Origin: Acidimicrobiales bacterium | Lineage (GTDB): Bacteria; Actinomycetota; Acidimicrobiia; Acidimicrobiales; VFJN01 | Length of the DNA stretch: 46,977 bases | Assembly: GCA_035708905.1 (NCBI GenBank) | Contig: DASTFE010000225.1 | Span: 1 to 46,977, forward strand | Direction: 5' to 3' | In this document: piece after piece, positions 2,115-42,942 of the stretch | Layout of the letters: each line of letters starts with the position of its first letter | How positions within the stretch are numbered: position 1 is the first letter of the stretch | Translations under genes and position numbers: made by a program | Notes under the pieces: generated by a model | The model's database searches: none | Seen by the model: only the letters and a program-made list of their open reading frames with translations | What the model was told of the DNA's origin: nothing

Positions 2115-2133
2115 ATCTGACGTCGCGTCAGAT
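2115..2133. promoter_or_regulatory. Palindromic operator candidate, family ATCTGAC-N5-GTCAGAT (site A)
   Basis: ATCTGAC GTCGC GTCAGAT, with perfect 7-8 bp arms. On the minus strand it is preceded by and overlaps a -10-like TAGAAT (CCGTAGAATCTGAC...), upstream of the SDR gene 1183-2094. Confidence 0.65.
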
Positions 2134-8546: not shown

Positions 8547-9710
8547 GTGCGCGCCCTGTTCGCCTCGACCGCCGGCACCGGACACCTGGGCCCGTTGGTG
8601 CCGTTCGCCTCGGCCTGCGCGGCGAGCGGCCACGAGGTCGCCGTGGCAGCGCCCGCCTCGTTCGCCGATGCCGTCGGACGCGCGGGGTTCGTCCACCTGG
8701 CCGTCGCCGACCCGCCCGAGGACGAGCTGAGCCGCCTCTTCGCCGCCCTGCCCGGGCTGGCACTGGAGGAGGCCAACGAGGTGGTGATCCGTGACGTCTT
8801 CGCCGGTGCGGACGCCCGCGCCGCGCTCGCGGGCCTGCACGAGATCGTCCGCACCTGGCGGCCCGACGTCGTCGTGCGCGAAACCGCCGAGTTCGCCTCG
8901 TACGTCGTCGCCGAGCACCACGGGGTCCCCCATGTGCAGGTCGCCATCGGACCCGCCGGCCTCGACGCCTTCGGGCTCCCCCGCGTCGACGGCCCACTGC
9001 GCGCGCTGGGGGCGGCGCGGGGCGCGGACGGGTTGCGCGACGCGCCGGTGCTGACGCTGGTCCCCGAGGTCCTGGACGAGCAGCGCGCCGGTGCCGGCCC
9101 GGTTCACCGGTTCCGCTACGAGCCCGCACCGGCAGGCGGGGCCGGGCGTCTGCCCTCGTGGGGCGACCCGGATTCTCCTCTCGTCTACGCCACGTTCGGC
9201 ACGGTGGCCGCGGGCCTCGGCCTGTTCCCCGACCTCTATCGGGATGCGATCGACGCCCTCGCCGACCTGCCCGTCCGCGTGCTCCTGACCATCGGCGACG
9301 CGGGCGACGCCGACGGCCTGGGGCCCCTGCCCGGCAACGTCCGCGTCGAGCGGTTCCGGCCGCAGTCCGAGGTGATGCCGGCCGCGGCGGCCATGATCGG
9401 CCACGGCGGGTTCGGCACCACGATGACCGGCCTCGCCCACGGTGTTCCCATGGTCGTCGTGCCCCTGTTCGCGATCGACCAGCACCTCAACGCGGCGGCG
9501 GTCGACCAGGTCGGCGCCGGCGTGGTGCTCGACGGCGGGCCGGCGGCGGCGCGGGCGCTCGCGGGGGCCGTCACGGCTGTGCTCGGCGAACCGTCGTTCC
9601 GGGCGCGGGCCCGGACCGTCGCCGGCGAGATCGCGTCGCTGCCCGCGGCGGCGAGCGGGGTGGCCGTGCTCGAGGACATCGCCGCCACCGGCCCGGCGCA
9701 GCCGCGCTAG
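8547..9710 (+). CDS. GT1-family (UDP-glycosyltransferase / MGT-like) glycosyltransferase
   Basis: 387 aa, GTG start. The N-terminus (FASTAGTGHLGPLVP) and the C-terminal nucleotide-sugar motif IGHGGFGTTMTGLAHGVPMVVVPLFAIDQHLNA are typical of GT1 GT-B enzymes. Confidence 0.88.
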   Translation: MRALFASTAGTGHLGPLVPFASACAASGHEVAVAAPASFADAVGRAGFVHLAVADPPEDELSRLFAALPGLALEEANEVVIRDVFAGADARAALAGLHEIVRTWRPDVVVRETAEFASYVVAEHHGVPHVQVAIGPAGLDAFGLPRVDGPLRALGAARGADGLRDAPVLTLVPEVLDEQRAGAGPVHRFRYEPAPAGGAGRLPSWGDPDSPLVYATFGTVAAGLGLFPDLYRDAIDALADLPVRVLLTIGDAGDADGLGPLPGNVRVERFRPQSEVMPAAAAMIGHGGFGTTMTGLAHGVPMVVVPLFAIDQHLNAAAVDQVGAGVVLDGGPAAARALAGAVTAVLGEPSFRARARTVAGEIASLPAAASGVAVLEDIAATGPAQPR

Positions 9711-11146
9711 GGGGCGTCGGCGGCCGCCGGCGCCGTCACCGCGGTGGCCTGCATCTCGGCTCGCTCCTGCTCGAGGAGCTGGTTCTCCTCGTAGATGGCG
9801 GTGACGATGGCGCGGGCGTCGTCCTCGAGCGTGCGGCGGGCCCGCAGCAACAGCAGCAGTCCCAGGATCACCGGAGGGAACGTGACGTAGAAGGCGGCGA
9901 CCAGCGATCCGGTGAGCGACGAGATGCCGCCGACCAGCACGGGAGCCAGCGCGGTGCCGAACACCGATGTCGTCAGCGCCATGGCCGAGGCGCCCACACC
10001 CCGCGAGTCGGGCGGCACCACGTCGAGCATCGCCGCCCGCAGCCCCGGCGCCGCGCCGGCGGCGGCGGTCACGCCCACGAACTGCAGCGCCAGGCGCAGC
10101 GCCACCGGCTCGACCGCGAACGAGAGCATGAACAGCAGCGAGCACGCGACCGCCGACCAGACGACGATGACGATGCGACCGCCCATCCAGCGGTGGTGGA
10201 ACCGGTCGGAGAAGGCGCCACCGCCGAGGGTGCCGATGAGCCCCCCGATGCCCAGCAGGCCGCCGGTGACCGCCGTGGCCTGGGTGATGCTCATGGCGGA
10301 GTAGCGCTCGTGGTAGATGGCGAGCCAGGTGCCGATGCCCGACACGGTGAACAGCAGCGCGCCCACGCCGACCAGCACGTAGCGCATGGTGCGGATGCCG
10401 AAGATCATCTTGAGCTGGCTGGCCAGCTCGGTGCCGGCGAGCCGGGCGAACTGGCGGACCGTCAGGCCCTCGGCTCCGCTCGGCCGGTCGACGACCCGGG
10501 GCGGCAGCGCCTCGATCTCGTCCCAGGTCATGGTCTCGGGCAGCTCGGCCTCGCCCCGGCGCGGCTCGCGCAGGCGGAACACCGCCAGCGCGGCCACGGC
10601 GCCGGGCACGCCGACCACGGCGAACGCCCACCGCCAGCCCACCGCCTCGCCCACCCAGCCGCCGAGCGCCAGGCCGATGCCGCCGCCGAGGAAGAAGCTG
10701 ACCTGCTGGAACGAGAACACCCGGCCCCGCATCCGCGACGGGTAGCTGTCGCCCAGGTACGAGGTCGACGCCGGGTCGTCGACGGCCTGGCCGATGCCCA
10801 TGGCGGCCCGGGCCACCAGCAGGTTCGCGTAGTTGACCGCGGTCGCCGACAGCAGGATGAGGCCGCTCCAGCTCAGCAGCGTCCATCCCACCACCCGCGT
10901 GCGCCGGAAGTGGTCGGCCACCCACCCGGCCGGGATGGTGGCCAGCGCGCTGACCAGCACGAACACCGATGACAGCAGGCCCAGCTCGGTGTCGGTGAGC
11001 CCCCACTCGTCCTCGAGGATGGGCAGCACGCCCCGGGCGACCGACACGTCGATCTGGTCGACCAGGCTGACCACCGCCATCACCACGAGCGGCCCCAGCG
11101 GGAAGCGACGGCCCTCGCGTCGGACGTCTGCGCGCTCGGTCGCCAT
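9707..11146 (-). CDS. MFS transporter
   Basis: 479 aa, about 12 hydrophobic segments. MFS loop motif GWVADHFRRTRV between TM2 and TM3. SD GGGGGTGAG before the ATG. Its stop overlaps the GT1 stop by 4 nt (CTAG). Confidence 0.88.
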   Translation of the reverse strand: MATERADVRREGRRFPLGPLVVMAVVSLVDQIDVSVARGVLPILEDEWGLTDTELGLLSSVFVLVSALATIPAGWVADHFRRTRVVGWTLLSWSGLILLSATAVNYANLLVARAAMGIGQAVDDPASTSYLGDSYPSRMRGRVFSFQQVSFFLGGGIGLALGGWVGEAVGWRWAFAVVGVPGAVAALAVFRLREPRRGEAELPETMTWDEIEALPPRVVDRPSGAEGLTVRQFARLAGTELASQLKMIFGIRTMRYVLVGVGALLFTVSGIGTWLAIYHERYSAMSITQATAVTGGLLGIGGLIGTLGGGAFSDRFHHRWMGGRIVIVVWSAVACSLLFMLSFAVEPVALRLALQFVGVTAAAGAAPGLRAAMLDVVPPDSRGVGASAMALTTSVFGTALAPVLVGGISSLTGSLVAAFYVTFPPVILGLLLLLRARRTLEDDARAIVTAIYEENQLLEQERAEMQATAVTAPAAADAP

Positions 11147-15907: not shown

Positions 15908-16339
15908 GTGGCCATCACCGAGGATCGACGGCACGAACTGCACGCTCGTCTCATCGAGGTACTGGGACAACAGAGGGCGACGACGCTGATGGAGCTCCTG
16001 CCCCCCGTCGGATGGGCCGATGTCGCCACCAAGCGCGACCTCGACCACCAGACGGTCGTGACCCAGCACGACATCGAGGTCGCCGTCGCCAAGCTCCGCA
16101 CCGAGATGCACGGCGAGTTCGCCGCCGTCCGCAGCGAGGTCGCCGGCTTGCGGTCGGAGGTCGACGGACTGCGCTCGGCGATCGCGGAGCTGCGCAGCGA
16201 GACGCACGGCGCCGTCGCCACCGCCGAGGTGCGCTTCGAGCGAGGCCTGCGCGACCAGAGTCGCACGTTCTTCCTCGGGATGCTCGGGGCGAACGCCTCG
16301 CTTGCCGGCCTTGCGTTCGCCGCCGCTCAGCTCGTCTGA
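15908..16339 (+). CDS. Coiled-coil protein with C-terminal membrane anchor (DUF1640-like)
   Basis: GTG 15908 follows GGAGG. Repetitive heptad-like EVAGLRSEVDGLRSAIAELRSE, and a hydrophobic tail FFLGMLGANASLAGLAFAAAQLV. Confidence 0.65.
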   Translation: MAITEDRRHELHARLIEVLGQQRATTLMELLPPVGWADVATKRDLDHQTVVTQHDIEVAVAKLRTEMHGEFAAVRSEVAGLRSEVDGLRSAIAELRSETHGAVATAEVRFERGLRDQSRTFFLGMLGANASLAGLAFAAAQLV

Positions 16340-16695
16340 CCGGGCCCGTCGATGATGGTGCGGGGCTCGTCGGTCAGCAGGTAGACGCTGTTGTCGAGGT
16401 CGAGCAGGTAGCGCTCGTCGGGGGCGACGATGCGCTGGTAGTCCGGGTCGGCGATCATGGCGTCGAAGTCGGCGATCGTGCGGTACCACTGCAGCGTCAC
16501 GCCGTCGAAGCCCGCGCTGCCGGTCCACCGGCCCGCGTCGCCGGCCATCCGGGGGTGCTGCTCGTAGCGCACCACCCAGTCGCCGATGCGGGGCACCGAC
16601 AGGATCTTGGCGGCGTGCACGTCCCGCCAGTGGGCGTGGAACTGCTCGGCGGTCAGGGCGGGGTTGCGGCGCAGCAGCGCCGTCAGGCGGATCAT
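16327..16695 (-). CDS. EthD-domain protein
   Basis: MIRLTALLRRNPALTAEQFHAHWRDVHA... is a typical EthD N-terminus. SD GGAAGG. 122 aa. The upstream part of the 186-aa track ORF is Arg/Gly junk. Confidence 0.78.
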   Translation of the reverse strand: MIRLTALLRRNPALTAEQFHAHWRDVHAAKILSVPRIGDWVVRYEQHPRMAGDAGRWTGSAGFDGVTLQWYRTIADFDAMIADPDYQRIVAPDERYLLDLDNSVYLLTDEPRTIIDGPGQTS

Positions 16696-16741
16696 CGGCT
16701 GCCTTCCGGCCGGGTGAGCGGACGCACTAGCTTGCCCGGCC

Positions 16742-17335
16742 ATGCCGACCGACGACCAGGGCGGCGGCCCCCCTCGGCCGTCAGCGCCCCGCATCCCGCC
16801 CCTGCCCGAGAGCGAGCGCGACGACCGGGCCCGCGAGCTGCTCGCCCAGGCGGGCGGGGCCGCGGCCGGTGCCACCAACATCTTCACGACGCTGGTGCGT
16901 CACCCCGGCCTGTTCCGCCGGTGGCTGCCCTTCGGCGGCAAGCTGCTCGCCGGCAAGCTGCCGGCCCGCGACCGCGAGTTGCTCATCCTCCGCACGGGAT
17001 GGAACTGCCGGTCCGACTACGAGTGGGCCCAGCACGTGCGCATCGCCCGGGCGGCAGGCCTGTCCGACGACGAGATCGCCCGGGTGCGCCAGGGCCCCGG
17101 CGCCGACGGCTGGTCCGCCCACGACGCGTTGCTGCTGGCCGCCGCCGACGAGCTGCACCGCGACGCCTGCCTCGGCGACGCCACCTGGGCGGCGCTGGCC
17201 GAGCGCTACGACGAGCGGCAGCTCGTCGAGGTGCCGATGCTGGTGGGGCACTACCACCTGGTGGCGTTCACGTTGAACTCGCTGGGCGTCCAGGTCGAGG
17301 ACGACGTGGCGGCCGACGCCGCGGGGACGGCGTGA
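16742..17335 (+). CDS. Carboxymuconolactone decarboxylase (AhpD-like) family protein
   Basis: 197 aa. NIFTTLVRHPGLFRRW...RDRELLILRTGWNCRSDYEWAQHVRIA is typical of the CMD family. Confidence 0.82.
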   Translation: MPTDDQGGGPPRPSAPRIPPLPESERDDRARELLAQAGGAAAGATNIFTTLVRHPGLFRRWLPFGGKLLAGKLPARDRELLILRTGWNCRSDYEWAQHVRIARAAGLSDDEIARVRQGPGADGWSAHDALLLAAADELHRDACLGDATWAALAERYDERQLVEVPMLVGHYHLVAFTLNSLGVQVEDDVAADAAGTA

Positions 17336-18117
17336 GCCCGCCGGCCGGTCGGCTGGCGGGCCGCACGGTCCTGGTCGTCGGCGCGGGCACCCGGTCCAGC
17401 GACGACGAGGACGCGCCCGTGGGCAACGGCCGGGCCATCGCGGTGACCGCGGCGCGCGCGGGCGCCGCGGTGGTGTGTGCCGACCGTGACGGCACGAGCG
17501 CCGAGGCGACCGCCGACCTCGTGCGGGCCGAGGGGGCGCCCGCCACGGTCGTGGTGGGCGACGTCGCCGACGAGGCCGACTGCTCGGCGATGGTGGCGGC
17601 CGCGGTCGAGGCCGGCGGTGGCGCCCTGCACGGCGTGGTCCTCAACGTCGGCATCGGTCGGGGCACGCGCCTGGCGGGCACGACCGCCACCGACTGGGAT
17701 CTGGTGCTCGCGGTCAACCTGCGCGGCCACTTCCTGGTCGCCCGCGAGGCGGCGCCCCACGTGCCCGAGGGCGGCGCGCTCGTGTTCGTCAGCTCGCTCG
17801 CCGGCCTGCAACCCGGCAGCCAGTCGCCGGCCTACGACGCCTCCAAGGCCGGCGTGATCGGGCTCAACCGCCACGTCGCGCTCGAGCTCGCCCGCCGTGG
17901 CGTGCGGTCGAACGTCGTCGCGCCGGGGTTGATCGACACCCCGATGGGCCGCAACGCCACCCGCGGGCGGCCGTCGCGGGGACGCACCCCCGTGCCCCTG
18001 GGTCGCCAGGGCTCGGGCTGGGAGGTGGCGGCGGCGACGTGCTTCCTGCTGTCGGACGAGGCGAGCTACATCACCGGCCACGTGCTGGCGGTCGACGGCG
18101 GGCTGAGCCTGATCTGA
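17332..18117 (+). CDS. Short-chain dehydrogenase/reductase (SDR)
   Basis: GTG 17332 overlaps the CMD stop (GTGA). VVGAGTRSS...GNGRAIA, LNVGIG, catalytic YDASKAG, and the C-terminal ITGHVLAVDGG. Confidence 0.88.
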   Translation: MSPPAGRLAGRTVLVVGAGTRSSDDEDAPVGNGRAIAVTAARAGAAVVCADRDGTSAEATADLVRAEGAPATVVVGDVADEADCSAMVAAAVEAGGGALHGVVLNVGIGRGTRLAGTTATDWDLVLAVNLRGHFLVAREAAPHVPEGGALVFVSSLAGLQPGSQSPAYDASKAGVIGLNRHVALELARRGVRSNVVAPGLIDTPMGRNATRGRPSRGRTPVPLGRQGSGWEVAAATCFLLSDEASYITGHVLAVDGGLSLI

Positions 18118-18126
18118 CCCGGGCGA

Positions 18127-18933
18127 TCACAGCACGGCGGCGCAGCCGACCCGGGGCGCCACCTCGGCGCCGAACAGCCGGAGCTGCTCGTACTGCTCGT
18201 GTGCGTCGCGGCTGCGGAACGCCACCTCGATCTGGTCGACGCCCAGTCCGGCGAGCACCCGCAGGAAGCTGGCGATCTGCTCGGGCGAGCCGTGCACGGC
18301 CCGACCGACGTCCCACCGGGGCTCGCCCACGTACAGCGGGCCGGACACCGCGCCCACGGTGAACGGCTCGTCGACCCGGCCGGCACGCTCGCGCAGCTCA
18401 CGCAGCCGGGCGATGCCGGCCGACATGCCGCCCTCGGGCGGGCCGGTGGACAGCCAGCCGTCGCCCACCTCGGCGGCGCGGCGCATGGCGGCAGGCGACG
18501 AGCCCTCGATCCAGATCGGCAGGCGGTGACCGTCCGGGTGCGGCCGGGCGGCCTCGGCGCGCACCGCGGCGAACCGCCGGTCGTCGAGGTCGGCCCCGCC
18601 CACGCCGAGGATGGCCCGGCCCCCCGACAGGGCGTCGAGCGTGGCCCACTGGCGGGCGATCATCCCGGGGTCGCAGCACGGCAGCACGTCGCCGAGGCCG
18701 AGCAGGCGGATCCTGCGGGTGGCCGCAGCCACGTACGACAGCGTGGCCACGGCGTCGTAGGAGACGGTGTCGCGGCCCGGGCCGGACGGCGCGGGCGGGG
18801 CGGAGCGATCGCGCACGGCGACGTAGGCGAAGCCGGCGTGCTCGGCGACCTGGGCGACCGACGCCGGGTCGTCGACCCCGGGCCGCACCTGGATGCCGAA
18901 CGACACCGGCGCCTCGGCGTCGCAGGTCCCCAA
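18127..18933 (-). CDS. LLM-class F420/flavin-dependent oxidoreductase
   Basis: 268 aa. TTG start with SD GGAGG 7 nt upstream. FGIQVRPG..., GRAILGVGG, IWIEGSSPAAMRRAAEVGDGW. Confidence 0.82.
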   Translation of the reverse strand: MGTCDAEAPVSFGIQVRPGVDDPASVAQVAEHAGFAYVAVRDRSAPPAPSGPGRDTVSYDAVATLSYVAAATRRIRLLGLGDVLPCCDPGMIARQWATLDALSGGRAILGVGGADLDDRRFAAVRAEAARPHPDGHRLPIWIEGSSPAAMRRAAEVGDGWLSTGPPEGGMSAGIARLRELRERAGRVDEPFTVGAVSGPLYVGEPRWDVGRAVHGSPEQIASFLRVLAGLGVDQIEVAFRSRDAHEQYEQLRLFGAEVAPRVGCAAVL

Positions 18934-19045: not shown

Positions 19046-19711
19046 TCACGGGGAGGGCGGGCGCTGGCCGGTGGTGCCCCAGTAGACCTGGCGGGCGACC
19101 GAGATGCGCACGTCGGCCGTGCGGATACCCCAGAACTCGAAGCCGAGGTGGTGGGCGGCCACGTTGGCCAGGGTGGTGACCAGCGTGCCGGCCTGCGCCA
19201 TGGGCTCGACACCCAGGTTCTTGCCCTCGGCCTGCAGGTCGCTGATGACCCGGGCCAGCTCGGTGGTCACGGCGTTGAGCAGCCGCACCCGGATGTTGCG
19301 GAAGCGCCGGTCGCCCTCGTCGGTGCTGAGATCGACCACGCGCAGCACAGGGCGGTGCTGGTCCCAGAACTCGAAGAAGGCGTCGGTCAGGTCGAGCGCC
19401 GTCTGGTAGCCGGCCCTGCCCTTCCAGTTGCCCTCGGCCACGAGCCGCACCAGGCGCTCGCCGTCGAGCGCCATCTCCTGGGCCAGCACGAGGATCGCGG
19501 CCTCGACGTCGGCGAAGTACTGGTAGAACGTCGCCGGCGAGGTGCCGGCCTCGCGGGCGATGTCGATGACCTTGATCGACCGGTAGGACGTCGTGCGGAG
19601 CATGGCCGCGGTGCACTCGAGCAGCCGCTGCCGCGTGGCCCGCCCCCGCCGCCCCGGCACCCGCCCGTCCGCCGCCCGCAGGTCTTCGGCCTGCTCCACC
19701 TGTTCAGCCAC
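19046..19711 (-). CDS. TetR-family transcriptional regulator
   Basis: 221 aa, GTG start. N-terminal HTH RQRLLECTAAMLRTTSYRSIKVIDIAREAGTSPATFYQYFADVEAA. It is the only DNA-binding regulator I can recognise in the window. Confidence 0.9.
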   Translation of the reverse strand: MAEQVEQAEDLRAADGRVPGRRGRATRQRLLECTAAMLRTTSYRSIKVIDIAREAGTSPATFYQYFADVEAAILVLAQEMALDGERLVRLVAEGNWKGRAGYQTALDLTDAFFEFWDQHRPVLRVVDLSTDEGDRRFRNIRVRLLNAVTTELARVISDLQAEGKNLGVEPMAQAGTLVTTLANVAAHHLGFEFWGIRTADVRISVARQVYWGTTGQRPPSP

Positions 19712-19728
19712 GGCCGACAGGCTAGTTG

Positions 19729-19749
19729 TCCCTGACGGACCATCAGGGA
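19729..19749. promoter_or_regulatory. Palindromic operator candidate upstream of the TetR gene (variant of the CTGAC-N5-GTCAG family)
   Basis: TCCCTGA-CGGACCA-TCAGGGA has a perfect 7-bp inverted repeat. Read in the family register it is CCCTGAC GGACC ATCAGGG. It lies 4 nt from a minus-strand TAGCCT (19719-19724), which is 7 nt from the TetR GTG. Confidence 0.6.
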
Positions 19750-20630
19750 GATGGCGGTGCGCCCAGCGGGGCGATGTACTGCTCGCCGAAGCGCTCGAGC
19801 GCCCGGATGTTGTCGTCGAGGGAGGCGAACTGCAGGCCGGCCATCATCCACGCCGAGGTGACCAGCGTGGTGACACCCACCTCGGCAAGCTCGGCGCACA
19901 CGTCCGGCGTGGGGGCCCGGTCGACCACCGACGCCTGGATCTCGAAGGGGCGGTCGGCCGTGCCGTGCTCGCGGCGATAGGCCTGCAGGCGCTCGACGAT
20001 CGCCTTCAGCTCGTCGACGCCGTAGTACACGCCCATCCAGCCGTCGCCGATGCGGGCGGCCCGGCGCAGCGCCGTGTCGCTGTGCCCGCCGACCAGGATG
20101 GGCACCGGCGCGGGTGGGGTCGGCGACATCTCGAGCCGGTCGAAGTCGTAGAACTCGCCGTGGTGCTCGACCATGCCGCCCCGCCACAGGGTGCGCAGCA
20201 CCGCGATCTGCTCCTCCATGCGGGCGCCCCGGCGCTCGAAGGCCTGCTCGAGCTGGACGAACTCCTCACGCATCCAGCCGGCGCCCACCCCCAGCAGCAC
20301 CCGGCCGCCGGAGAGGTGGGCGGCCGTGCCGACGGCCTTGGCCACGACGAACGGGTTGCGGGCCGGCAGCACGTAGACGTGGGTCGAGAACGTGATGCGC
20401 TCGGTGACGGCCGCCAGCGCCCCCGTCATGACCCACACGTCGGGCCACGGCGTCTCGGGCGGGAAGATGGGCTCGCCGGTGGCCGAGTAGGGGTACGACG
20501 AGTCGAGCTTGGCCGGGTAGAAGACGTGGTCGGAGAGCGACACCTGGGCGAACCCGGCCGCCTCGGCGACCTGCGTCAGCTCGACCCACTGGTCGGGCGA
20601 CGCGTACATCAGCGACTGGCAGAACCTCAC
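19743..20630 (-). CDS. LLM-class F420-dependent oxidoreductase
   Basis: 295 aa. MRFCQSLMY..., FSTHVYVLPARNP, GGRVLLGVGAGWMREEF, PILVGGHSDTALRRAARIGDGW. Its GTG start overlaps the upstream stop (GTGA). Confidence 0.88.
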   Translation of the reverse strand: MRFCQSLMYASPDQWVELTQVAEAAGFAQVSLSDHVFYPAKLDSSYPYSATGEPIFPPETPWPDVWVMTGALAAVTERITFSTHVYVLPARNPFVVAKAVGTAAHLSGGRVLLGVGAGWMREEFVQLEQAFERRGARMEEQIAVLRTLWRGGMVEHHGEFYDFDRLEMSPTPPAPVPILVGGHSDTALRRAARIGDGWMGVYYGVDELKAIVERLQAYRREHGTADRPFEIQASVVDRAPTPDVCAELAEVGVTTLVTSAWMMAGLQFASLDDNIRALERFGEQYIAPLGAPPSP

Positions 20631-21247
20631 GACGACCAGATCTTGACGAGCTCGTCGACCGTGGTGAGCGTGGCCAGCAGGCTGAGCGTGTGCTCGACGA
20701 CGGCCTCGGCGTAGTCGACGGGCACCCCGCAGACCGCGTCGCGGGGCAGCACCACCTGGTAGCCGCGGTTGACCGCGTCCATGACCAGGTTGGTGACGGC
20801 CACGTTGACCGACACGCCGGTGACGACGATCGTGCTCACCCCCAGGTTGCGCAGCACGGCGTCGAGGCCGGTGTCGGCCATGGGGTTGAGCCCGTGCGTG
20901 CGGCTGAGCACCACGTCGGTGGGGCCGACGCCCACCTCGTCGACCACCTGGGTGGCGTGCGACCCGGGCAGCAGCTTGACCGGCGACTTGGCCACGGCGT
21001 TGAACAGGCGGGCGTTGGTGTTGGCACCCTTGCCGTCGACGCGGCGTTCGAAGGTGCCGTGCACCACCTCGACGCCGGCGGCCCGGGCGGCCTTCACCAG
21101 GCGGCCCAGCGCCGGCAGCATCGTGCCGCGGGCCGCCTCGGCCAGCTCGGGCAGGGCGGCCTCGTCGCCGACGACGCCGTTCTGCACCTCGGACGTGACG
21201 ACGGCGGTGCGCCAGGTCGACACCAGCTCTGGTAGGTCGGCGGCCAT
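20627..21247 (-). CDS. Isochorismatase-family hydrolase
   Basis: 206 aa. Family fold signature TIVVTGVSVNVAVTNLVMDAVNRGY. The position of the nucleophilic Cys of cysteine hydrolases reads Ala (NVAV), as in isochorismatase-type rather than nicotinamidase-type members. Confidence 0.82.
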   Translation of the reverse strand: MAADLPELVSTWRTAVVTSEVQNGVVGDEAALPELAEAARGTMLPALGRLVKAARAAGVEVVHGTFERRVDGKGANTNARLFNAVAKSPVKLLPGSHATQVVDEVGVGPTDVVLSRTHGLNPMADTGLDAVLRNLGVSTIVVTGVSVNVAVTNLVMDAVNRGYQVVLPRDAVCGVPVDYAEAVVEHTLSLLATLTTVDELVKIWSS

Positions 21248-22794: not shown

Positions 22795-23541
22795 ATGCCG
22801 ACCCACCTGCACTCGGTCGTGTTCGACGCCGCCGACCCGCCGGGGCTGGCCCGGTTCTGGGCGGCGCTGACCGGCTGGACCGTCAGCCACGAGGGTCCCG
22901 ACGAGGTGGTGGTCGGGCCGTCCGCCGGGGCCGGCCTGCCGCTCGTGTTCGTCCCTGTCGACGACCCCAAGGTGGTCAAGAACCGGGTGCACATCGATCT
23001 CGACAGCCGCTCGGCCGACGACCAGGCCGCCCTCGTCGACCTCGCGCTGGGGGCCGGGGCGACGCGGGCCGACATCGGCCAGGGCGCCACGCCCTGGGTG
23101 GTGCTGGCCGACCCGGAGGGCAACGAGCTGTGCGTCCTCGACCCCCGACCCGACTACGCCGAGGCCGGTGCGATCGCCGCGATCGTGCTGGACACGCCCG
23201 ACCCGGGCGCTCTGGCGCCGTTCTGGGCCGCGGCCACGGGGTACGCCGTCGAGACCCAGCCCGACGGCGACGTCCGGCTGGTCCCGCCCGGGGGCCGCGG
23301 CCCGCGGCTCGAGCTGCTGAGGAACGACGACCCCAAGGTGGCGAAGAACCGGGTGCACCTGGACGTCGCGCCCGGCGCCGCCGACGACCACGGCGCGGAG
23401 GTCGAACGCCTGCGGGCCCTCGGCGCCACCGACGCCGACGTCGGCCAGGGCCGGCGTCCGTGGACGGTGCTCGCCGACCCGCACGGCAACGAGCTGTGCG
23501 TGCTCGGCCCTCGTGACCGAACCGACGCCCGTGTAATCTGA
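22795..23541 (+). CDS. Tandem VOC (glyoxalase/bleomycin-resistance/dioxygenase) domain protein
   Basis: 248 aa made of two homologous halves (FWAALTGW...KNRVHIDL...PWVVLADPEGNELCVL and FWAAATGY...KNRVHLDV...PWTVLADPHGNELCVL). Confidence 0.85.
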   Translation: MPTHLHSVVFDAADPPGLARFWAALTGWTVSHEGPDEVVVGPSAGAGLPLVFVPVDDPKVVKNRVHIDLDSRSADDQAALVDLALGAGATRADIGQGATPWVVLADPEGNELCVLDPRPDYAEAGAIAAIVLDTPDPGALAPFWAAATGYAVETQPDGDVRLVPPGGRGPRLELLRNDDPKVAKNRVHLDVAPGAADDHGAEVERLRALGATDADVGQGRRPWTVLADPHGNELCVLGPRDRTDARVI

Positions 23542-23555
23542 CACGGCGTCAGATT
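23535..23555. promoter_or_regulatory. Palindromic operator candidate, family ATCTGAC-N5-GTCAGAT (site B)
   Basis: AATCTGAC ACGGC GTCAGATT has perfect 8-bp arms. It overlaps a -10-like TAATCT and the VOC stop codon. SD GGGAG and ATG 23576 follow. Confidence 0.65.
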
Positions 23556-23575: not shown

Positions 23576-24778
23576 ATGCCTGCCACCGTCGAGATCCCCA
23601 AGATCATCAGCGTCGACGACCACGTGGTCGAGCCGGCCCACGTGTGGCAGACGTGGCTGCCCGCCGCCTTCCGCGACCGCGGGCCCCGCGTCGAGCGGCG
23701 CGGCGTGGGGGGCATGCGCCACGTCGGCGGCGGCCACTACGAGCAGGCCTTCGACGACGACGCGCCCGACAAGGCCGACTGCTGGGTGTTCGAGGACGTC
23801 GTCTACGTCCACAAGCGGCACGTGGCGGCCGTGGGCTACCCCCGCGACCAGATGACCATGACGCCCATGACCTACGACGAGATGCGGCCCGGCTGCTACG
23901 ACCCCCGGGCACGGGTCGAGGACATGGAGCTGAACCACGTCGAGGCCTCGCTCTGCTTCCCGACCTTCCCCCGCTTCTGCGGGCAGACGTTCACCGAGGC
24001 CACCGATCGCGAGCTCGGCCTGGCGTGCGTGCGGGCCTACAACGACTGGATGGTCGAGGAGTGGTGCGGCGACTCGGGCGGCCGCCTGATCCCGCTGATC
24101 ATCGTGCCGCTCTGGGACGCCGAGCTGGCCGCCGCCGAGGTCCGTCGCAACGCCGCCCGGGGGGTGCACGCCGTCTGCTTCAGCGAGATCCCGGTCCACC
24201 TGGGGCTGCCCTCGATCCACTCGGGTTCCTGGGACCCCTTCTTCGCGGCCTGCCAGGAGACGCGGACCACGATCAACATGCACATCGGCTCGTCGTCGCG
24301 CATGCCGGCCACGTCACCCGACGCGCCCACCGGGGTGGCGGCCACGCTCAGCTTCAACAACGCCATGGCCTCGATGAGCGACTGGCTGTTCTCGGGCAAG
24401 CTGGTGCAGTTCCCCGAGCTGACGCTCGCCTACAGCGAGGGCCAGATCGGCTGGATCCCCTACATCCTCGAGCGGGCCGACACCGTGTGGGAGGAGCACC
24501 GGGCCTGGGCCCGCACCAAGGACCTGGTGCCCGAGCCGCCGTCGACCTACTACTACCGGCAGATCTACGGCTGCTTCTTCCGCGACCGCCACGGCATCGA
24601 GGCGATCGACGTCGTGGGCCCCGACAACGTGACCTTCGAGACCGACTACCCCCACACCGACTCGACCTGGCCCGACACGAAGAAGGTGGCCGAGGAGCTC
24701 ATGGCCGGCGTGCCCCAGGACGTCGTCGACAAGGTGATGCGCACCAACGCGGCCCGCATGCTGCACCTCGACCTCTGA
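23576..24778 (+). CDS. Amidohydrolase-2 family metal-dependent hydrolase (paralogue of 11350-12585)
   Basis: 400 aa. IPKIISVDDHVVEPAHVW, NHVEASLCFP, YNDWMVEEW, MHIGSSS, ETDYPHTDS. Collinear with the first paralogue. Confidence 0.9.
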   Translation: MPATVEIPKIISVDDHVVEPAHVWQTWLPAAFRDRGPRVERRGVGGMRHVGGGHYEQAFDDDAPDKADCWVFEDVVYVHKRHVAAVGYPRDQMTMTPMTYDEMRPGCYDPRARVEDMELNHVEASLCFPTFPRFCGQTFTEATDRELGLACVRAYNDWMVEEWCGDSGGRLIPLIIVPLWDAELAAAEVRRNAARGVHAVCFSEIPVHLGLPSIHSGSWDPFFAACQETRTTINMHIGSSSRMPATSPDAPTGVAATLSFNNAMASMSDWLFSGKLVQFPELTLAYSEGQIGWIPYILERADTVWEEHRAWARTKDLVPEPPSTYYYRQIYGCFFRDRHGIEAIDVVGPDNVTFETDYPHTDSTWPDTKKVAEELMAGVPQDVVDKVMRTNAARMLHLDL

Positions 24779-24815
24779 GCGCCCATGGACCTGACACCGA
24801 AGGTGCGCTGAGCCG

Positions 24816-26306
24816 GTGGTGCTGGCCGCCACGGTCCGCGAGGCCGCCCGCCGCTTCCACGACCTGCCGGCGCTCGTCGACCCCGACGGCTGGCCGGTCG
24901 GCTACGCCGACCTCGACCGCCGTTCCGACGCGGTGGCCGCCGCGCTGGCGGCCCGGGGGGTGGGCGAGGGCGACCGGATCGTGCTGCGGGTCCCGTCCGA
25001 CAGCGGCTACGTCGTCGCCTACGTCGCCGCGGCCAAGCTGGGCGCCGTCACCGCCGGCATCAACCCCCGGCTGGCGCCCCCCGAGCAGCAGGCGCTGGTC
25101 GAGCTGGCCGACGCCGCCGTCGTGCTTGCCGAGGCCGGCGAGGTGGCCGAGCTCGAGGCCGCCGGGCGGGCCGCCGTCGAGCGGGACGGGCCCCCGCCGC
25201 CGCTGCCCGCCGATCCCGACCGTCCGGTGGCCATCGTGTTCACGTCGGGCACGACCGGGCTGCCCAAGGGCGCCGTGTTCTGCGAGCGCCAGCTCGAGGC
25301 CGTGGCGGGGACCGACACGGGCGGGGCGTGGGCGCCGGTGGGCCGGCCAGGACCGGCGATGCTGGCCTCGACGCAGTTCGCCCACGTCGGCTTCACCACC
25401 AAGCTGCCGTGGTACCTGCGGCTGGCGACGCGGACCCACATCCTCGGCCGGTGGCGGGCCGACGACGCCCTGCGCACCATCGCCGAGCAGCGCATGCCCT
25501 CGATCGGCGGGGTGGCGCCGCAGCTCGCCCTGATGGTGCGCTCGCCCGAGGTCGCCCGCCACGACTGGGACCACGTGAAGACCGTGGTGGTCGGCGGCGC
25601 CGCCTCACCCCCCGCCCTGGTGGCGGCCGTGCGCGAGCGCTTCGGTGCCGCCTACTCGATCCGCTACTCGTCCACCGAGTCGGGCGGCTGCGGCACCGGC
25701 ACCGCCTTCGACGCCGACGCCGACGAGGCCCTGCACACCGTCGGGCGCCCCCGCCCGGGCGTCGAGATGGCGGTGCGAGACGACGGCGGCGCCGAGGTCG
25801 CCGCCGGCGAGGTGGGCGAGCTGTGGCTGCGCTCGCCCACCCAGATGTCGGGCTACTGGCGCGATCCCGAGGGCACGGCCGCCGCCATCGTCGACGGCTG
25901 GCTGCGCACCGGCGACCTGGCCCGCGTCGACGAGCGGGGGCTGCTGCGCTTGGCGGGGCGGGTCAGGGAGATGTTCATCCGGGGTGGCTACAACGTGTAC
26001 CCGGCCGAGGTCGAGGCCGCGCTCGCCGCCCACCCGGCCGTGGCCGAGGTGGCGGTGGTGCCCCGGCCCGACCCGGTGATGGGCGAGATCGGGGTGGCCG
26101 TCGTGGCCCCGGCCGCGGATCGCCCGGCACCGACGCTCGAGGAGCTGGGCGCCTTCCTCGCCGGGAGGGTGGCGGCCTACAAGATCCCCGAGGACCTGCG
26201 CATCGTCCCCGAGCTGCCGCTCACGCCCATGCAGAAGGTCGATCGCCGCTCGCTGGCGGCCGACGAGGCATCCCGGCAGACGCCGCCGCGCGACCGGGCG
26301 TCATGA
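24816..26306 (+). CDS. Acyl-CoA synthetase / AMP-dependent ligase
   Basis: 496 aa, GTG start. IVFTSGTTGLPKGA, YSSTESGG, TGDLARVDERGLLRLAGR, GGYNVYPAEVE, and the terminal TPMQKVDRR lysine. Confidence 0.9.
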   Translation: MVLAATVREAARRFHDLPALVDPDGWPVGYADLDRRSDAVAAALAARGVGEGDRIVLRVPSDSGYVVAYVAAAKLGAVTAGINPRLAPPEQQALVELADAAVVLAEAGEVAELEAAGRAAVERDGPPPPLPADPDRPVAIVFTSGTTGLPKGAVFCERQLEAVAGTDTGGAWAPVGRPGPAMLASTQFAHVGFTTKLPWYLRLATRTHILGRWRADDALRTIAEQRMPSIGGVAPQLALMVRSPEVARHDWDHVKTVVVGGAASPPALVAAVRERFGAAYSIRYSSTESGGCGTGTAFDADADEALHTVGRPRPGVEMAVRDDGGAEVAAGEVGELWLRSPTQMSGYWRDPEGTAAAIVDGWLRTGDLARVDERGLLRLAGRVREMFIRGGYNVYPAEVEAALAAHPAVAEVAVVPRPDPVMGEIGVAVVAPAADRPAPTLEELGAFLAGRVAAYKIPEDLRIVPELPLTPMQKVDRRSLAADEASRQTPPRDRAS

Positions 26307-27179
26307 CGCCAGATGTCGCCCCAGGTTCACCGGGGACTCGGGCGGGTAGCCGCCCTCGCCCAGCATGGCCCGCGACAAGGGCGTGAGCAGGTCGAACAGC
26401 TCGTCGGCGCGGTCACCGAGGCGGGCGACGACCTCGCGCTCCGACCGGTCGGTGGCGATCTCGATCTGCTCACGCAGGTCACGACCGGCGTCGGTGAGGG
26501 CGCCGTCGCCGTCGAGCAGCCCCCGCTCGGTCAGCCGCCCGCGGGCTGCGGCGACGTCGTCGGCGTCGTAGCCCCGGGTCCAGACGTAGCTGCCGGGCTC
26601 GATGCCCCACCAGAGCTCGGACAGCAGGGTGATCTCCGTGGAGTCGACGTGCGAGATCCAGGCGGCGACGTGGCCGTCGCCCCGGTGCTCGCGCACCCGG
26701 TCGGCCGCCCGCCACAGCCGTCCGGCCGGGTCGTCGGGTCCGGGCACCGGCAGGCCGGCCAGGCCCGAGAACAGCGGGCGCCCCGAGCCGTCGACGCCGT
26801 CGGTCATCTCCAGCAGCAGGTCGGCGGCGGCCAGGAACCGGTCGGTGGGTTCGCCGGCCATGCGGAGCATCTGGTCGCGGGCGCCCGCGAGCCGGGCGTC
26901 GAGCAGTTGCTCGGGCGTCGCCTTCTGCCACCCGCCGGTGACGGCCCGCTCGACGACCGCCGGCTTGAACGCGGCGAACACGCCGGCGACGACCCGCCAC
27001 GGCGCCGCACCCAGGCAGGCGCTGCGGCTGCAGAAGTAGCCCTCGAAGTAGTTCAGCCCCAGGGCCCGGTACCGCTCCTGCGCCTCGGGTGCGAAGTAGA
27101 CGGCGGCCGCCACGGGCTCGACCATCCGGCCGAGCCGCCGTGCCGTGGCGCGGGCGGTCGCGTCGCTGTCGGTCGTCAA
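26301..27179 (-). CDS. Conserved hypothetical protein (last gene of the thiolase operon)
   Basis: 292 aa. TTG start 9 nt after GAAGGGGA. Coding-like composition (YFAPEAQERYRALGLNYFEGYF...HRGDGHVAAW...). Family not recognised. Confidence 0.6.
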   Translation of the reverse strand: MTTDSDATARATARRLGRMVEPVAAAVYFAPEAQERYRALGLNYFEGYFCSRSACLGAAPWRVVAGVFAAFKPAVVERAVTGGWQKATPEQLLDARLAGARDQMLRMAGEPTDRFLAAADLLLEMTDGVDGSGRPLFSGLAGLPVPGPDDPAGRLWRAADRVREHRGDGHVAAWISHVDSTEITLLSELWWGIEPGSYVWTRGYDADDVAAARGRLTERGLLDGDGALTDAGRDLREQIEIATDRSEREVVARLGDRADELFDLLTPLSRAMLGEGGYPPESPVNLGRHLAS

Positions 27180-29832: not shown

Positions 29833-29851
29833 ATCTGACGGGTCGTCACAT
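29833..29851. promoter_or_regulatory. Palindromic operator candidate, family ATCTGAC-N5-GTCAGAT (site C)
   Basis: ATCTGAC GGGTC GTCACAT has one arm mismatch. On the minus strand the layout is operator-N7-TAGCCT(29820-29825)-N6-ATG(29813) of the HMGCS-like gene. Confidence 0.65.
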
Positions 29852-31576: not shown

Positions 31577-31595
31577 ATCTGACGGACCGTCACAT
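31577..31595. promoter_or_regulatory. Palindromic operator candidate, family ATCTGAC-N5-GTCAGAT (site D)
   Basis: ATCTGAC GGACC GTCACAT is followed by N7, TAGCCT (31603-31608), N6 and ATG 31615. It lies in the divergent region shared with the GT39 gene. Confidence 0.65.
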
Positions 31596-37188: not shown

Positions 37189-37206
37189 TCTGACGCTCCG
37201 TCAGAT
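37188..37206. promoter_or_regulatory. Palindromic operator candidate, family ATCTGAC-N5-GTCAGAT (site E)
   Basis: ATCTGAC GCTCC GTCAGAT has perfect arms. It overlaps a -10-like TAATCT (37186-37191) and the stop of the preceding gene. SD GGGAAAGG and ATG 37243 follow. Confidence 0.65.
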
Positions 37207-38424: not shown

Positions 38425-38431
38425 GCGCAGC

Positions 38432-40671: not shown

Positions 40672-40698
40672 CACGACAGCCGGGAGGCAACCCGACCC

Positions 40699-42923: not shown

Positions 42924-42942
42924 ACCTGACGACCCGTCAGAC
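42924..42942. promoter_or_regulatory. Palindromic operator candidate, family ATCTGAC-N5-GTCAGAT (site F)
   Basis: ACCTGAC GACCC GTCAGAC keeps the CTGAC/GTCAG core intact. It is followed by N7, TACCGT (42950-42955), N6 and ATG 42962. Confidence 0.6.

What the first reader, a model, noticed from the sequence alone, without database searches (positions are those of the whole stretch)
19046..21247. Candidate cognate repressor: TetR gene behind its own variant palindrome at the end of an isochorismatase-LLM unit
The TetR gene (19046-19711) is the only regulator in the window. A perfect inverted repeat TCCCTGA-N7-TCAGGGA (19729-19749) lies 17 nt upstream of its GTG start. The repeat contains the family core CTGAC-GGACC-ATCAG, with the same spacer GGACC as site D at 31577. 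Between repeat and start is the same -10 hexamer, TAGCCT, used by the HMGCS-like and CoA-transferase promoters. This fits autoregulation by the protein that binds the six other sites. Upstream on the same strand, an isochorismatase-family gene (lacking the nucleophilic Cys position, NVAV) is GTGA-coupled to an F420-type LLM whose stop lies inside the palindrome. The TetR may therefore also be read through from that unit.
Basis: inference. Interest (0 to 1): 0.65.

Follow-up and report, generated by a model that had tools for sequence, protein, structure and literature searches.

The report
Autoregulated TetR repressor of lipid-breakdown regulon
A TetR-type repressor gene in an uncultured soil Acidimicrobiales bacterium sits behind its own copy of a DNA box found in front of about 25-30 fatty-acid-like breakdown operons, and across 251 related genomes the box is frequent only where this gene is present; it is therefore very probably their shared, self-controlling repressor, a familiar kind of system in a lineage where none has been described.

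Summary
The 221-aa TetR gene (19046-19711, minus strand) lies 17 nt behind the perfect repeat TCCCTGA-N7-TCAGGGA, with TAGCCT 7 nt before the GTG start. The functional unit is the 15-bp box CTGAYG-N3-CGTCAG. It is one core mismatch away from a box, CTGACG-N3-CGTCAG, that occurs 27 times (10-base core) in this 4.6-Mb genome, against about 3 expected.

1. Of 80 TetR-family genes in the genome, only this one has the box in its promoter.
2. The box-TANNNT-start arrangement is conserved before all 21 orthologues of at least 80% identity, and it is canonical in Microthrixaceae.
3. In 251 Acidimicrobiales genomes, three or more perfect boxes occur in 56 of 77 with the TetR and in 5 of 174 without it (p = 3e-32). 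Contrasts within families agree.

An SCO6745-family HTH protein is encoded at 26301-27179, but it does not track the box.

Genes behind the boxes are mostly acyl-CoA enzymes. The box positions fit repression. Binding and the ligand are untested. This is a new member of a known kind (KstR- or FadR-like regulons), of moderate interest.

The parts
19046..19711 (-). TetR-family regulator, 221 aa, GTG start, probably leaderless. Candidate repressor of the CTGACG-N3-CGTCAG regulon.
   Evidence: PF19352 at 153 bits and PF00440 at 27 bits. AF2 model with pLDDT 91; the nearest solved fold is EthR, TM 0.75/0.85. Single copy in the genome. Orthologues are 80-93% identical within the genus.
19732..19746 (.). 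The TetR's own operator box. On the gene strand it reads CTGATG-GTC-CGTCAG, one core mismatch from the consensus. It lies within the perfect repeat at 19729-19749.
   Evidence: Conserved at the same place before orthologues.
19720..19725 (-). TAGCCT, a -10-like hexamer of TANNNT type. It lies 7 nt after the box and 7 nt before the GTG.
   Evidence: A TANNNT 6-8 nt before the start codon is conserved in orthologues. That this marks a leaderless promoter is inferred from established knowledge of actinobacterial promoters.
19743..20630 (-). F420-type luciferase-like oxidoreductase (LLM1), 295 aa. Its stop codon lies inside the repeat.
   Evidence: PF00296. TIGR03619 at 231 bits, above its cut-off.
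20627..21247 (-). Isochorismatase-family protein, 206 aa, with Ala at the nucleophile position. GTGA-coupled to LLM1. It has its own TAGGGT-N7-ATG promoter-like element and no box.
18127..18933 (-). Second LLM (LLM2), 268 aa, 112 nt downstream of the TetR. It has no box of its own and always follows the TetR in close relatives, so it is possibly co-transcribed.
2117..2131 (.). Box A, CTGACGTCGCGTCAG. TAGAAT abuts it on the upstream side. It precedes the SDR gene at 1183-2094 (minus strand).
23538..23552 (.). Box B. It overlaps TAATCT and precedes the Amidohydro_2 plus acyl-CoA synthetase genes (23576-26306, plus strand).
29835..29849 (.). Box C, with one mismatch. The arrangement is box-N9-TAGCCT-N6-ATG. 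It precedes the HMGS-DUF35 / thiolase / SCO6745-family HTH operon (29813-26301, minus strand).
31579..31593 (.). Box D, with one mismatch. The arrangement is box-N9-TAGCCT-N6-ATG. It precedes the CoA-transferase III gene at 31615-32871 (plus strand).
37190..37204 (.). Box E. It overlaps TAATCT and precedes the ACAD / CoA-transferase / hydratase / ACAD operon (37243-41832, plus strand).
42926..42940 (.). Box F. The arrangement is box-N9-TACCGT-N6-ATG. It precedes the enoyl-CoA hydratase gene at 42962-43789 (plus strand).

Best explanation
The gene at 19046-19711 encodes a TetR-family repressor (C-terminal domain family TetR_C_38). As a dimer it most likely binds the palindromic box (T/C)CTGACG-N3-CGTCAG(A/G).

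The box lies in front of about 25-30 transcription units of this Acidimicrobiales genome, seven of them in this window. Most encode acyl-CoA-handling enzymes.

The boxes sit in two repressor-type positions:
- Over the -35 region and spacer of leaderless promoters (box-N7-9-TANNNT-N6-7-start).
- Over the transcription start, immediately after or overlapping the -10 hexamer of leadered promoters.

The regulator's own promoter is of the first type. It carries a slightly weakened box (CTGATG instead of CTGACG) that is conserved in the genus, so the protein would limit its own synthesis. Transcription from the unboxed isochorismatase-LLM1 promoter upstream may read into the TetR gene, since no terminator intervenes.

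By analogy with other lipid-sensing TetR proteins, an acyl-CoA or related lipid intermediate would release the repressor from DNA.

Shown here: the anatomy, its conservation and the co-occurrence of gene and box. Inferred: binding, the sign of regulation and the ligand.
For: **The box is a real genome-wide element**
- TCTGAC-N5-GTCAGA with at most one mismatch occurs 25 times, against 1 for the reversed control.
- There are 27 perfect 10-base cores, against about 3 expected from base composition (my estimate).
- 8 of the 43 boxes with at most one mismatch lie in this window, which is 1% of the genome (p = 1e-8).

**The gene is linked to the box**
- Of the 80 TetR_N genes in the genome, only this one has a box with at most one mismatch in its promoter. 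The one other TetR gene with a nearby box (contig C114) has it inside the coding sequence.
- The box-TANNNT-start arrangement is conserved before orthologues. All 21 at 80% identity or more have it with at most two mismatches, and 16 of 26 at 65-80% do. It is canonical CTGACG-N3-CGTCAG in Microthrixaceae and others.
- In 14 of 20 family representatives a box with at most one mismatch lies within 3 kb upstream. It is either 40-90 nt before the TetR or about 38 nt before the first gene of an LLM/isochorismatase-TetR operon.

**Phyletic pattern over 251 genomes of the order**
- Genomes with the TetR have a mean of 6.4 perfect boxes; genomes without it have 0.45.
- Three or more boxes occur in 56 of 77 with the TetR and in 5 of 174 without (Fisher p = 3e-32).
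- At family level the Mann-Whitney p is 8e-11.
- Contrasts within families agree: f23 has 19 boxes against 0, 0, 0, 0; f64 has 9 and 12 against 0 and 0; f24 has 6 against 0, 1, 0, 0; f41 has 5 against 0, 0, 0.
- A Nitriliruptorales MAG, from another class, with a 52% orthologue has 15 boxes and 0 in the control.
- Families with the TetR but few boxes (f32, f19, f31) also lack the box at the TetR locus itself.

**Protein and regulon**
- The recognition helix TSPATFYQYF is invariant.
- The first genes behind boxes are SDR, ECH, ACAD, acyl-CoA synthetases, CoA-transferase III, NMO, thiolase/DUF35 and amidohydrolases.
- The box positions overlap promoter elements.
- The fold is a canonical TetR. 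The nearest solved structures are EthR, FasR and Thermus FadR, which bind hydrophobic or acyl ligands.
Against: - There is no binding, expression or ligand data. The organism is an uncultured MAG.
- Co-occurrence cannot fully separate the regulator from a faithful member of the regulon. Another, unidentified factor could bind the boxes and also control this TetR gene.
- The phyletic pattern has exceptions. Five genomes without the TetR have 3-6 boxes, and two box-rich relatives (G008, G035) lack a detectable TetR; all are draft MAGs. 21 of 77 genomes with the TetR have fewer than 3 perfect boxes. Actinomadura genomes with a 55% homologue show no enrichment.
- The TetR's own box deviates from the consensus, and it lies 2 nt closer to the -10 hexamer than at the three other leaderless promoters.
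- The TetR_N match is only just above the Pfam cut-off (27.3 against 24 bits).
Confidence: 0.78

Rival explanations
1. Another regulator encoded elsewhere in the genome binds the CTGACG-N3-CGTCAG boxes. This TetR would be merely one of its targets and would itself control only its LLM and isochorismatase neighbours through some other site.
For: - No direct binding data exist.
- Any constant regulon member would show the same phyletic correlation.
- Five genomes without the TetR have 3-6 boxes.
- G008 and G035 are box-rich with no TetR detected.
Against: - The TetR is the only DNA-binding protein found consistently linked to the box across families.
- None of the other 79 TetR genes carries the box in its promoter.
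- A 15-bp two-fold symmetric box fits a TetR dimer (general knowledge of the family).
- The exceptions are draft MAGs of 78-98% completeness.
- No second conserved palindrome was seen at the TetR locus.
Confidence: 0.13
2. The SCO6745-family HTH_67 protein (26301-27179) is the box-binding regulator. It is the last gene of the box-C operon and so would be autoregulated.
For: - It has a strong HTH_67 / SCO6745-family match.
- It is single copy in this genome.
- It lies in an operon headed by box C.
Against: - It does not track the box. G025 has 11 boxes and G045 has 6, and neither has a homologue. G052 and G055 have homologues of 48-53% identity and no boxes.
- A close orthologue (70% identity or more over at least 270 residues) was found in only 11 of the 27 other genomes of the genus, although 26 of them have 5 or more boxes.
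- Most genomes carry 2-5 paralogues.
- DNA binding by this family has not been shown.
Confidence: 0.04
3. The TetR is a purely local regulator with its own private palindrome, TCCCTGA-N7-TCAGGGA, which is distinct from the ATCTGAC-N5-GTCAGAT family. The resemblance between the two would be coincidental.
For: - In this genome the flanks differ (CC/GG against AT/AT).
- One core base differs.
- The spacing to the -10 hexamer differs by 2 nt.
Against: - In orthologues the box at the same position grades into the canonical sequence: CTGACG-N3-CGTCAG in L050, L060, L066, L069, L072, L077 and L083.
- Its right flank varies freely.
- Many genome-wide boxes also have CCTGAC or GTCAGG flanks.
Confidence: 0.04
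4. The palindromes are not protein operators. They would be RNA hairpins or repeat elements, such as attenuators, terminators or REP-like repeats.
For: The repeat can form a 9-bp RNA hairpin.
Against: - The arms are conserved while the 3-5 nt centre varies freely.
- The boxes sit at fixed offsets from -10 hexamers and start codons, upstream of genes.
- No U-tract or terminator-like site was found.
- Folding of the region is not exceptional (z = -1.06).
Confidence: 0.01

Closest known systems
KstR and KstR2 (TetR-family repressors of cholesterol and lipid catabolism in Mycobacterium and Rhodococcus)
   Same: - An autoregulated TetR-family repressor with a short palindromic operator overlapping promoters, several of them leaderless.
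- A multi-operon regulon of acyl-CoA synthetases, ACADs, hydratases, thiolase/DUF35 pairs and CoA-transferases.
This TetR would therefore be a second lipid regulator beside a KstR-type one.
   Different: - The operator sequence differs: CTGACG-N3-CGTCAG here, against TnnAACnnGTTnnA for KstR and AnCAAGnnCTTGnT for KstR2 (the latter two from my own knowledge).
- The C-terminal domain family differs (TetR_C_38).
- No KstR or KstR2 chain appears among the 22 PDB sequence hits at E up to 0.01.
- The ligand is unknown.
Acyl-CoA-sensing TetR regulators: Thermus thermophilus FadR, Bacillus FadR (YsiA), Mycobacterium FasR
   Same: - The same fold class, appearing among the structural neighbours (FasR TM 0.66/0.76; Thermus FadR 0.52-0.54; Bacillus halodurans FadR 0.63).
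- Control of fatty-acid metabolic genes through palindromic boxes.
- A long-chain acyl-CoA as effector is the most likely parallel.
   Different: - Sequence identity is only 15-20%.
- NCBIfam matches to FabR and FasR are far below their cut-offs.
- FasR is an activator.
- Ligand binding was not tested here.
EthR (Mycobacterium tuberculosis)
   Same: It is the nearest solved structure (TM 0.75/0.85, rmsd about 3 angstrom). It is a TetR repressor with a long hydrophobic ligand tunnel, encoded next to an oxygenase gene.
   Different: - Identity is 19%.
- EthR binds a long operator as an octamer and controls a single divergent gene (from my own knowledge).
- Here a 15-bp box is spread over about 25-30 promoters.
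Rv2161c-Rv2160A-Rv2159c locus of the M. tuberculosis complex (BCG_2177c TetR-like repressor linked to growth on lipids and cholesterol)
   Same: - A TetR gene sits directly after an Rv2161c-family F420 LLM; LLM1 here is TIGR03619.
- A CMD/AhpD-like gene lies nearby (16742-17335).
- The papers describe a likely operon and a lipid/cholesterol phenotype (PMC4482099, PMC9301340, PMC5337628).
   Different: - Orthology of the two TetR proteins was not tested, because no sequence was at hand.
- No Mycobacterium appears among the 80 best of 240 genomic relatives.
- The passages I searched in these papers report no operator.
KstR3 of Mycolicibacterium neoaurum (PMC10398937)
   Same: It is a TetR-family negative regulator of an operon with a thiolase-like aldolase, a DUF35 protein and a reductase in sterol side-chain breakdown. 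This resembles the box-C operon here.
   Different: - It is a local regulator encoded inside its single target operon.
- The passages I read describe no operator.
- Homology to this TetR was not tested.

Membership tests
TetR family of transcriptional regulators | N-terminal helix-turn-helix of TetR_N type | tested here: met
   PF00440 at 27.3 bits against a cut-off of 24, residues 31-68. PDB hits to EthR, SCO3201 and others lie over residues 16-125.
TetR family of transcriptional regulators | All-helical C-terminal ligand-binding and dimerisation domain | tested here: met
   PF19352 TetR_C_38 at 153 bits. AF2 model with 10 helices and pLDDT 91. Foldseek to EthR gives TM 0.75/0.85.
TetR family of transcriptional regulators | Binds a palindromic operator, usually overlapping a promoter | not testable with these tools
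   Only indirect evidence: the box is conserved at the gene's own promoter and box abundance tracks the gene.
TetR family of transcriptional regulators | A small-molecule ligand releases the protein from DNA | not testable with these tools
   No ligand data. The nearest folds bind hydrophobic or acyl ligands.
KstR / KstR2 steroid-catabolism repressors | Operator of KstR type (TnnAACnnGTTnnA) or KstR2 type (AnCAAGnnCTTGnT) | tested here: not met
   The box linked to this TetR is CTGACG-N3-CGTCAG. The KstR consensus sequences are from my own knowledge.
KstR / KstR2 steroid-catabolism repressors | Sequence orthology to KstR or KstR2 | tested here: not met
   No KstR or KstR2 chain appears among the PDB sequence hits at E up to 0.01. 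NCBIfam gives only weak FabR, ScbR and FasR matches below their cut-offs.
FadR-type acyl-CoA-sensing TetR regulators | Regulon made of fatty-acid or acyl-CoA degradation genes | tested here: met
   In some searches the first gene behind 13 of 18 boxes outside the window is an SDR, ECH, ACAD, AMP-binding ligase, CoA-transferase III, NMO, MDR reductase or amidohydrolase. All six other boxes in the window also precede genes of these kinds.
FadR-type acyl-CoA-sensing TetR regulators | Binds acyl-CoA | not testable with these tools
   Structural similarity to Thermus and Bacillus FadR is only moderate (TM 0.52-0.63).
Rv2160A / BCG_2177c-type TetR | TetR gene adjacent to an Rv2161c-family F420 LLM | tested here: met
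   LLM1 matches TIGR03619 at 231 bits, above its cut-off, and lies directly upstream of the TetR.
Rv2160A / BCG_2177c-type TetR | Orthology of the TetR proteins | not tested
   No Rv2160A sequence was available. No Mycobacterium appears among the 80 listed relatives.

The most novel reading that the evidence does not exclude
TetR_C_38 proteins of this orthologous group are a previously undescribed global lipid or acyl-CoA catabolism repressor of Acidimicrobiia, also present in at least one Nitriliruptorales genome. They would have their own operator, CTGACG-N3-CGTCAG, and control 10-30 promoters per genome beside a KstR-type system. A deliberately weakened autoregulatory box on a leaderless promoter would set the repressor level.
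Probability: 0.7. Interest if true: 0.5.

Novelty: new member of a known kind. Interest (0 to 1): 0.42.

Why it matters
Acidimicrobiia are abundant in soil, water and activated sludge. They are almost uncultured, and I found no described regulator-operator pair for this TetR group in the searches I ran.

A confident pairing of one TetR orthologue group with a 15-bp box has three uses:
- It allows 10-30 operons per genome to be annotated as one co-regulated acyl-CoA or lipid-like breakdown pathway.
- It assigns a first function to the TetR_C_38 domain family; about 4000 homologues were found at E up to 1e-20.
- It gives an easily testable in-vitro system of a synthetic gene plus short duplexes.

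It also shows two fixed operator-promoter layouts on leaderless and leadered promoters. The kind of system itself, a TetR repressor of lipid catabolism with autoregulation, is well known.

Tried and rejected
- **HTH_67 / SCO6745-family protein as the regulator.** Rejected on its phyletic pattern.
- **Other TetR paralogues.** Of the 80 scanned, none has the box in its promoter. The one box with a single mismatch, on C114, lies inside coding sequence.
- **Sequence search of the PDB and NCBIfam for a characterised orthologue.** Only HTH-level or sub-threshold matches were found.
- **Literature searches.** The terms TetR_C_38 and PF19352 returned 0 papers. CTGACG/CGTCAG with TetR returned only irrelevant papers.
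- **Names in the 5.8-billion protein set.** Only generic TetR or AcrR family labels appear.
- **Cultured Actinomadura with 55% homologues as a possible test organism.** There is no box enrichment, and what looked like a box is a TAAACT -10 hexamer running into a leaderless ATG.
- **Box before the isochorismatase or LLM2 genes in this genome.** None was found.
- **Terminator between LLM1 and the TetR.** None was found.
- **CRP-type site as an alternative reading.** Rejected, because both the spacing and the half-site differ (TCTGA-N7-TCAGA against TGTGA-N6-TCACA, the latter from my own knowledge). A near-universal factor such as CRP would also not explain the patchy phyletic pattern.
- **One failed call.** The first alignment failed because one locus reference included a stop codon. 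It was repeated successfully.
Full report
**1. What is in the sequence**

The window has 74% G+C. By named relatives, it comes from an uncultured soil Acidimicrobiales bacterium.

On the minus strand, one search shows four genes in a row:
- An isochorismatase-family gene at 21247-20627.
- An F420-type luciferase-like oxidoreductase (LLM1) at 20630-19743. Its GTG start overlaps the preceding TGA stop, giving GTGA.
- A 221-aa TetR-family gene at 19711-19046, with a GTG start.
- A second LLM (LLM2) at 18933-18127.

Pfam and NCBIfam confirm these identities. The TetR matches PF19352 TetR_C_38 (153 bits) and PF00440 TetR_N (27 bits). LLM1 matches TIGR03619, above its cut-off. Gene calls on public contigs that carry the identical TetR give the same four genes.

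- The perfect repeat TCCCTGA-N7-TCAGGGA lies at 19729-19749.
- 17 nt separate it from the GTG.
- TAGCCT at 19725-19720 lies 7 nt after the box and 7 nt before the GTG.
- The LLM1 stop codon TGA lies inside the repeat.
- The isochorismatase has Ala where solved relatives have the nucleophilic Cys: NVAV against NCCV in 3kl2.

CTGA-N7-TCAG occurs six times in the window, against 0.39 expected.

**2. One statement is wrong**

The TetR is the only TetR_N gene on the contig, but it is not the only regulator-like gene. The gene at 26301-27179 (minus strand) is an SCO6745-family HTH_67 protein (E = 2.5e-78). It is the last gene of the HMGS-DUF35 / thiolase operon that stands behind box C. I treated it as a serious rival.

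**3. The box family**

The window sites share (A)TCTGAC-N5-GTCAGA(T). In the whole 4.59-Mb draft genome:
- TCTGAC-N5-GTCAGA with at most one mismatch occurs 25 times, against once for the reversed control.
- The 10-base core is perfect 27 times, where base composition predicts about 3 (my estimate).
- The first and last spacer bases are mostly G and C, so the unit is CTGACG-N3-CGTCAG.
- Many sites have C rather than T before the core.

The TetR's own site is CTGATG-GTC-CGTCAG on the gene strand. It is therefore the same box with one core mismatch. Eight of the 43 boxes with at most one mismatch lie in this window, which is 1% of the genome (p = 1e-8). One of the eight (at 10451) lies inside a gene.

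**4. What the boxes precede, and where they sit**

In the window the boxes precede:
- an SDR;
- Amidohydro_2 plus an acyl-CoA synthetase;
- HMGS-DUF35 / thiolase / HTH_67;
- a CoA-transferase III;
- an ACAD / CoA-transferase / double-hotdog hydratase / ACAD operon;
- an enoyl-CoA hydratase.

Elsewhere in the genome I looked at 18 first genes behind boxes.
- Thirteen are of the same kinds: 2 SDR, 3 ECH, 1 NMO, 2 Amidohydro_3, 3 acyl-CoA synthetases, 1 CoA-transferase III and 1 ACAD. An MDR reductase makes fourteen.
- The remaining four do not fit: an aminotransferase, a Clp_N protein, a TrkA_C/PhoU protein and an IdeR-like regulator.

So this is an acyl-CoA or lipid-like catabolic regulon.

One search shows two promoter layouts:
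- At the HMGS-DUF35, CoA-transferase and ECH genes the layout is box-N9-TANNNT-N6-ATG. This is a leaderless promoter with the box over the -35 region and spacer.
- At the SDR, Amidohydro_2 and ACAD units the -10-like hexamer abuts or overlaps the upstream edge of the box (TAGAAT|CTGACG, TAATCT|GAC). The box then covers the start site, and a leader with a Shine-Dalgarno sequence follows.

Both are repressor-type positions. The TetR promoter is of the first type but reads box-N7-TAGCCT-N7-GTG.

**5. Is this TetR the protein that belongs to the box?**

I ran three independent comparative tests.

*(a) Specificity within the genome.* The genome has 80 TetR_N genes. Only this one has a box with at most one mismatch in its promoter. 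The one other near hit lies inside coding sequence. The TetR and the HTH_67 gene are each single copy.

*(b) Conservation at the gene itself.*
- Orthologues are unusually well conserved for a TetR: 80-93% identity in the genus, 61-81% in the other genera of the family, and 45-71% for most hits in other families of the order. The recognition helix TSPATFYQYF is invariant.
- In 28 of 30 loci from relatives the sequence CCTGA(T/C)G-N3-CGTCAG sits 5-7 nt before TANNNT, which is 6-8 nt before the start codon.
- Among named public genomes, all 21 orthologues of at least 80% identity have the box with at most two mismatches. So do 16 of 26 at 65-80%, but only 3 of 22 at 55-65%.
- In Microthrixaceae and some others the box is the canonical CTGACG-N3-CGTCAG. 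This removes the idea of a private variant palindrome.
- In 20 representatives of different families, 14 have a box with at most one mismatch within 3 kb upstream. About 0.013 is expected per locus.
- Where the box is not directly before the TetR, it often lies about 38 nt before the first gene of an LLM/isochorismatase-TetR operon (L118, L123, L129).

*(c) Phyletic pattern across 251 genomes of the order.*
- An orthologue (E up to 1e-20) is present in 77 genomes. These carry on average 6.4 perfect CTGACG-N3-CGTCAG boxes. The other 174 carry 0.45.
- Three or more boxes occur in 56 of 77 against 5 of 174 (Fisher p = 3e-32).
- Collapsed to families, the difference persists (29 against 54 families, p = 8e-11).
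- Several families contain both states, and the boxes follow the gene: f23 has 19 against 0, 0, 0, 0; f64 has 9 and 12 against 0 and 0; f24 has 6 against 0, 1, 0, 0; f41 has 5 against 0, 0, 0; f75 has 7, 4 and 4 against 0.
- A Nitriliruptorales MAG, from another class, with a 52% orthologue has 15 boxes and none in the control.
- Families that have the TetR but few boxes (f32, f19, f31) also lack a box at the TetR locus. Families f71 and f61 keep a variant box in the same box-TAGCCT-ATG layout.

The HTH_67 protein fails this test:
- G025 (11 boxes) and G045 (6 boxes) have no homologue.
- G052 and G055 have homologues of 48-53% identity and no boxes.
- A close orthologue (70% identity or more over at least 270 residues) appears in only 11 of the 27 other genomes of the genus, although 26 of them have 5 or more boxes.

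**6. Limits**

- Co-occurrence cannot strictly distinguish the regulator from an invariable regulon member.
- There are exceptions to the pattern: five genomes without the TetR have 3-6 boxes; G008 and G035 are box-rich with no TetR detected (all are draft MAGs); 21 genomes with the TetR have fewer than three perfect boxes; and Actinomadura homologues at 55% identity show no box enrichment.
- Nothing here shows binding, the sign of regulation or the effector.
- The AF2 model is a standard ten-helix TetR (pLDDT 91). Its nearest solved folds are EthR (TM 0.75/0.85), FasR and the acyl-CoA-binding FadR proteins. This makes a hydrophobic or acyl-CoA effector a reasonable guess and no more.

**7. 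Read-through and the neighbouring genes**

- No terminator-like site lies between LLM1 and the TetR. The repeat as RNA is not followed by a U-tract, and the region does not fold exceptionally. Read-through from the isochorismatase-LLM1 unit is therefore plausible.
- In this genome that unit has no box of its own. It has a TAGGGT-N7-ATG element.
- LLM2 follows the TetR in all close relatives. It has no box, so it may be transcribed from the TetR promoter.
- The LLM1 stop lying inside the repeat is peculiar to this genome. In relatives the stop lies further upstream.

**8. Comparison with known systems**

Functionally this resembles KstR/KstR2 and the FadR-type TetR regulators. Each is a self-controlled TetR repressor with a short palindromic operator on the promoters of many lipid or acyl-CoA catabolic operons.

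It is not a member of those groups. The operator differs, and there is no sequence relationship beyond the HTH.

This would therefore be a second lipid regulator acting beside a KstR-type one.

Two leads were not tested for orthology:
- The M. tuberculosis-complex locus Rv2161c (LLM of the same TIGR03619 family) - Rv2160A (TetR) - Rv2159c (CMD). Its TetR has been linked to growth on lipids and cholesterol (PMC4482099, PMC9301340, PMC5337628).
- KstR3 of Mycolicibacterium neoaurum, a TetR repressor of a thiolase-like/DUF35/reductase operon (PMC10398937).

The passages I searched or read in these papers report no operator for either.

**9. Verdict**

- Two corrections apply: the TetR is not the only regulator in the window, and the regulon is genome-wide rather than six sites.
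- It is a new member of a known kind. My confidence in the regulator-operator assignment is about 0.78.
- Interest is moderate. The pairing is useful for annotating an uncultured class and easy to test in vitro, but it would not surprise a specialist.

Noticed in passing
window 26301-27179 (-): An SCO6745-family HTH_67 protein (292 aa) is the last gene of the box-C operon, after HMGS-DUF35 and a thiolase. Relatives carry 2-5 paralogues per genome. The family's function is unknown, and it does not track the box.
   Followed up: partly
G287 (Nitriliruptorales MAG, genome of locus L108): There are 15 perfect boxes in 3.2 Mb, and 11 of them share the spacer GGGTC/GACCC. Three lie on the contig numbered C95, which may be the TetR contig (record ...095). 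If so, they are about 7 kb or more from the TetR. The stereotyped spacer could mean recent spread of the site or a longer recognition sequence.
   Followed up: no
alignment of TetR orthologues, window residue Tyr43: Families with the TetR but few perfect boxes (f61, f73, f32, f19, f71) have Trp instead of Tyr43, the invariant SYR becoming S/PWR before helix 2. They also have FEN instead of FAD/FPD after the recognition helix. This is a possible specificity switch, but it may only reflect phylogeny.
   Followed up: partly
L141, L142, L131 (family f71), about 100-120 nt upstream of the TetR box: A KstR-like palindrome (GGAACGGAACCCGTTCTA) stands next to the TetR box in three genomes of one family. 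This suggests that KstR-type and CTGACG-type control meet at this locus.
   Followed up: no
G000 C266:2500 and C286:1477: Boxes precede an IdeR/DtxR-like metal regulator gene and a Ser/Thr protein kinase gene. This could be cross-regulation, or the sites could be chance matches.
   Followed up: no
window 10451-10465: A one-mismatch box (CTGGCGGACCGTCAG) lies inside the MFS transporter gene at 9707-11146. It is probably a chance match.
   Followed up: no
L148-L150 (family f73): Only a half-box, CTGAC, directly abuts the TAGCCT -10 hexamer of the TetR promoter (CTGACCTAGCCT-N9-GTG) in three genomes. This is a degenerate or different operator layout.
   Followed up: no
window 16327-18117: EthD, CMD (AhpD-like) and SDR genes flank LLM2. 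The CMD, TetR and Rv2161c-type LLM together recall the Rv2159c-Rv2161c locus of the M. tuberculosis complex.
   Followed up: partly
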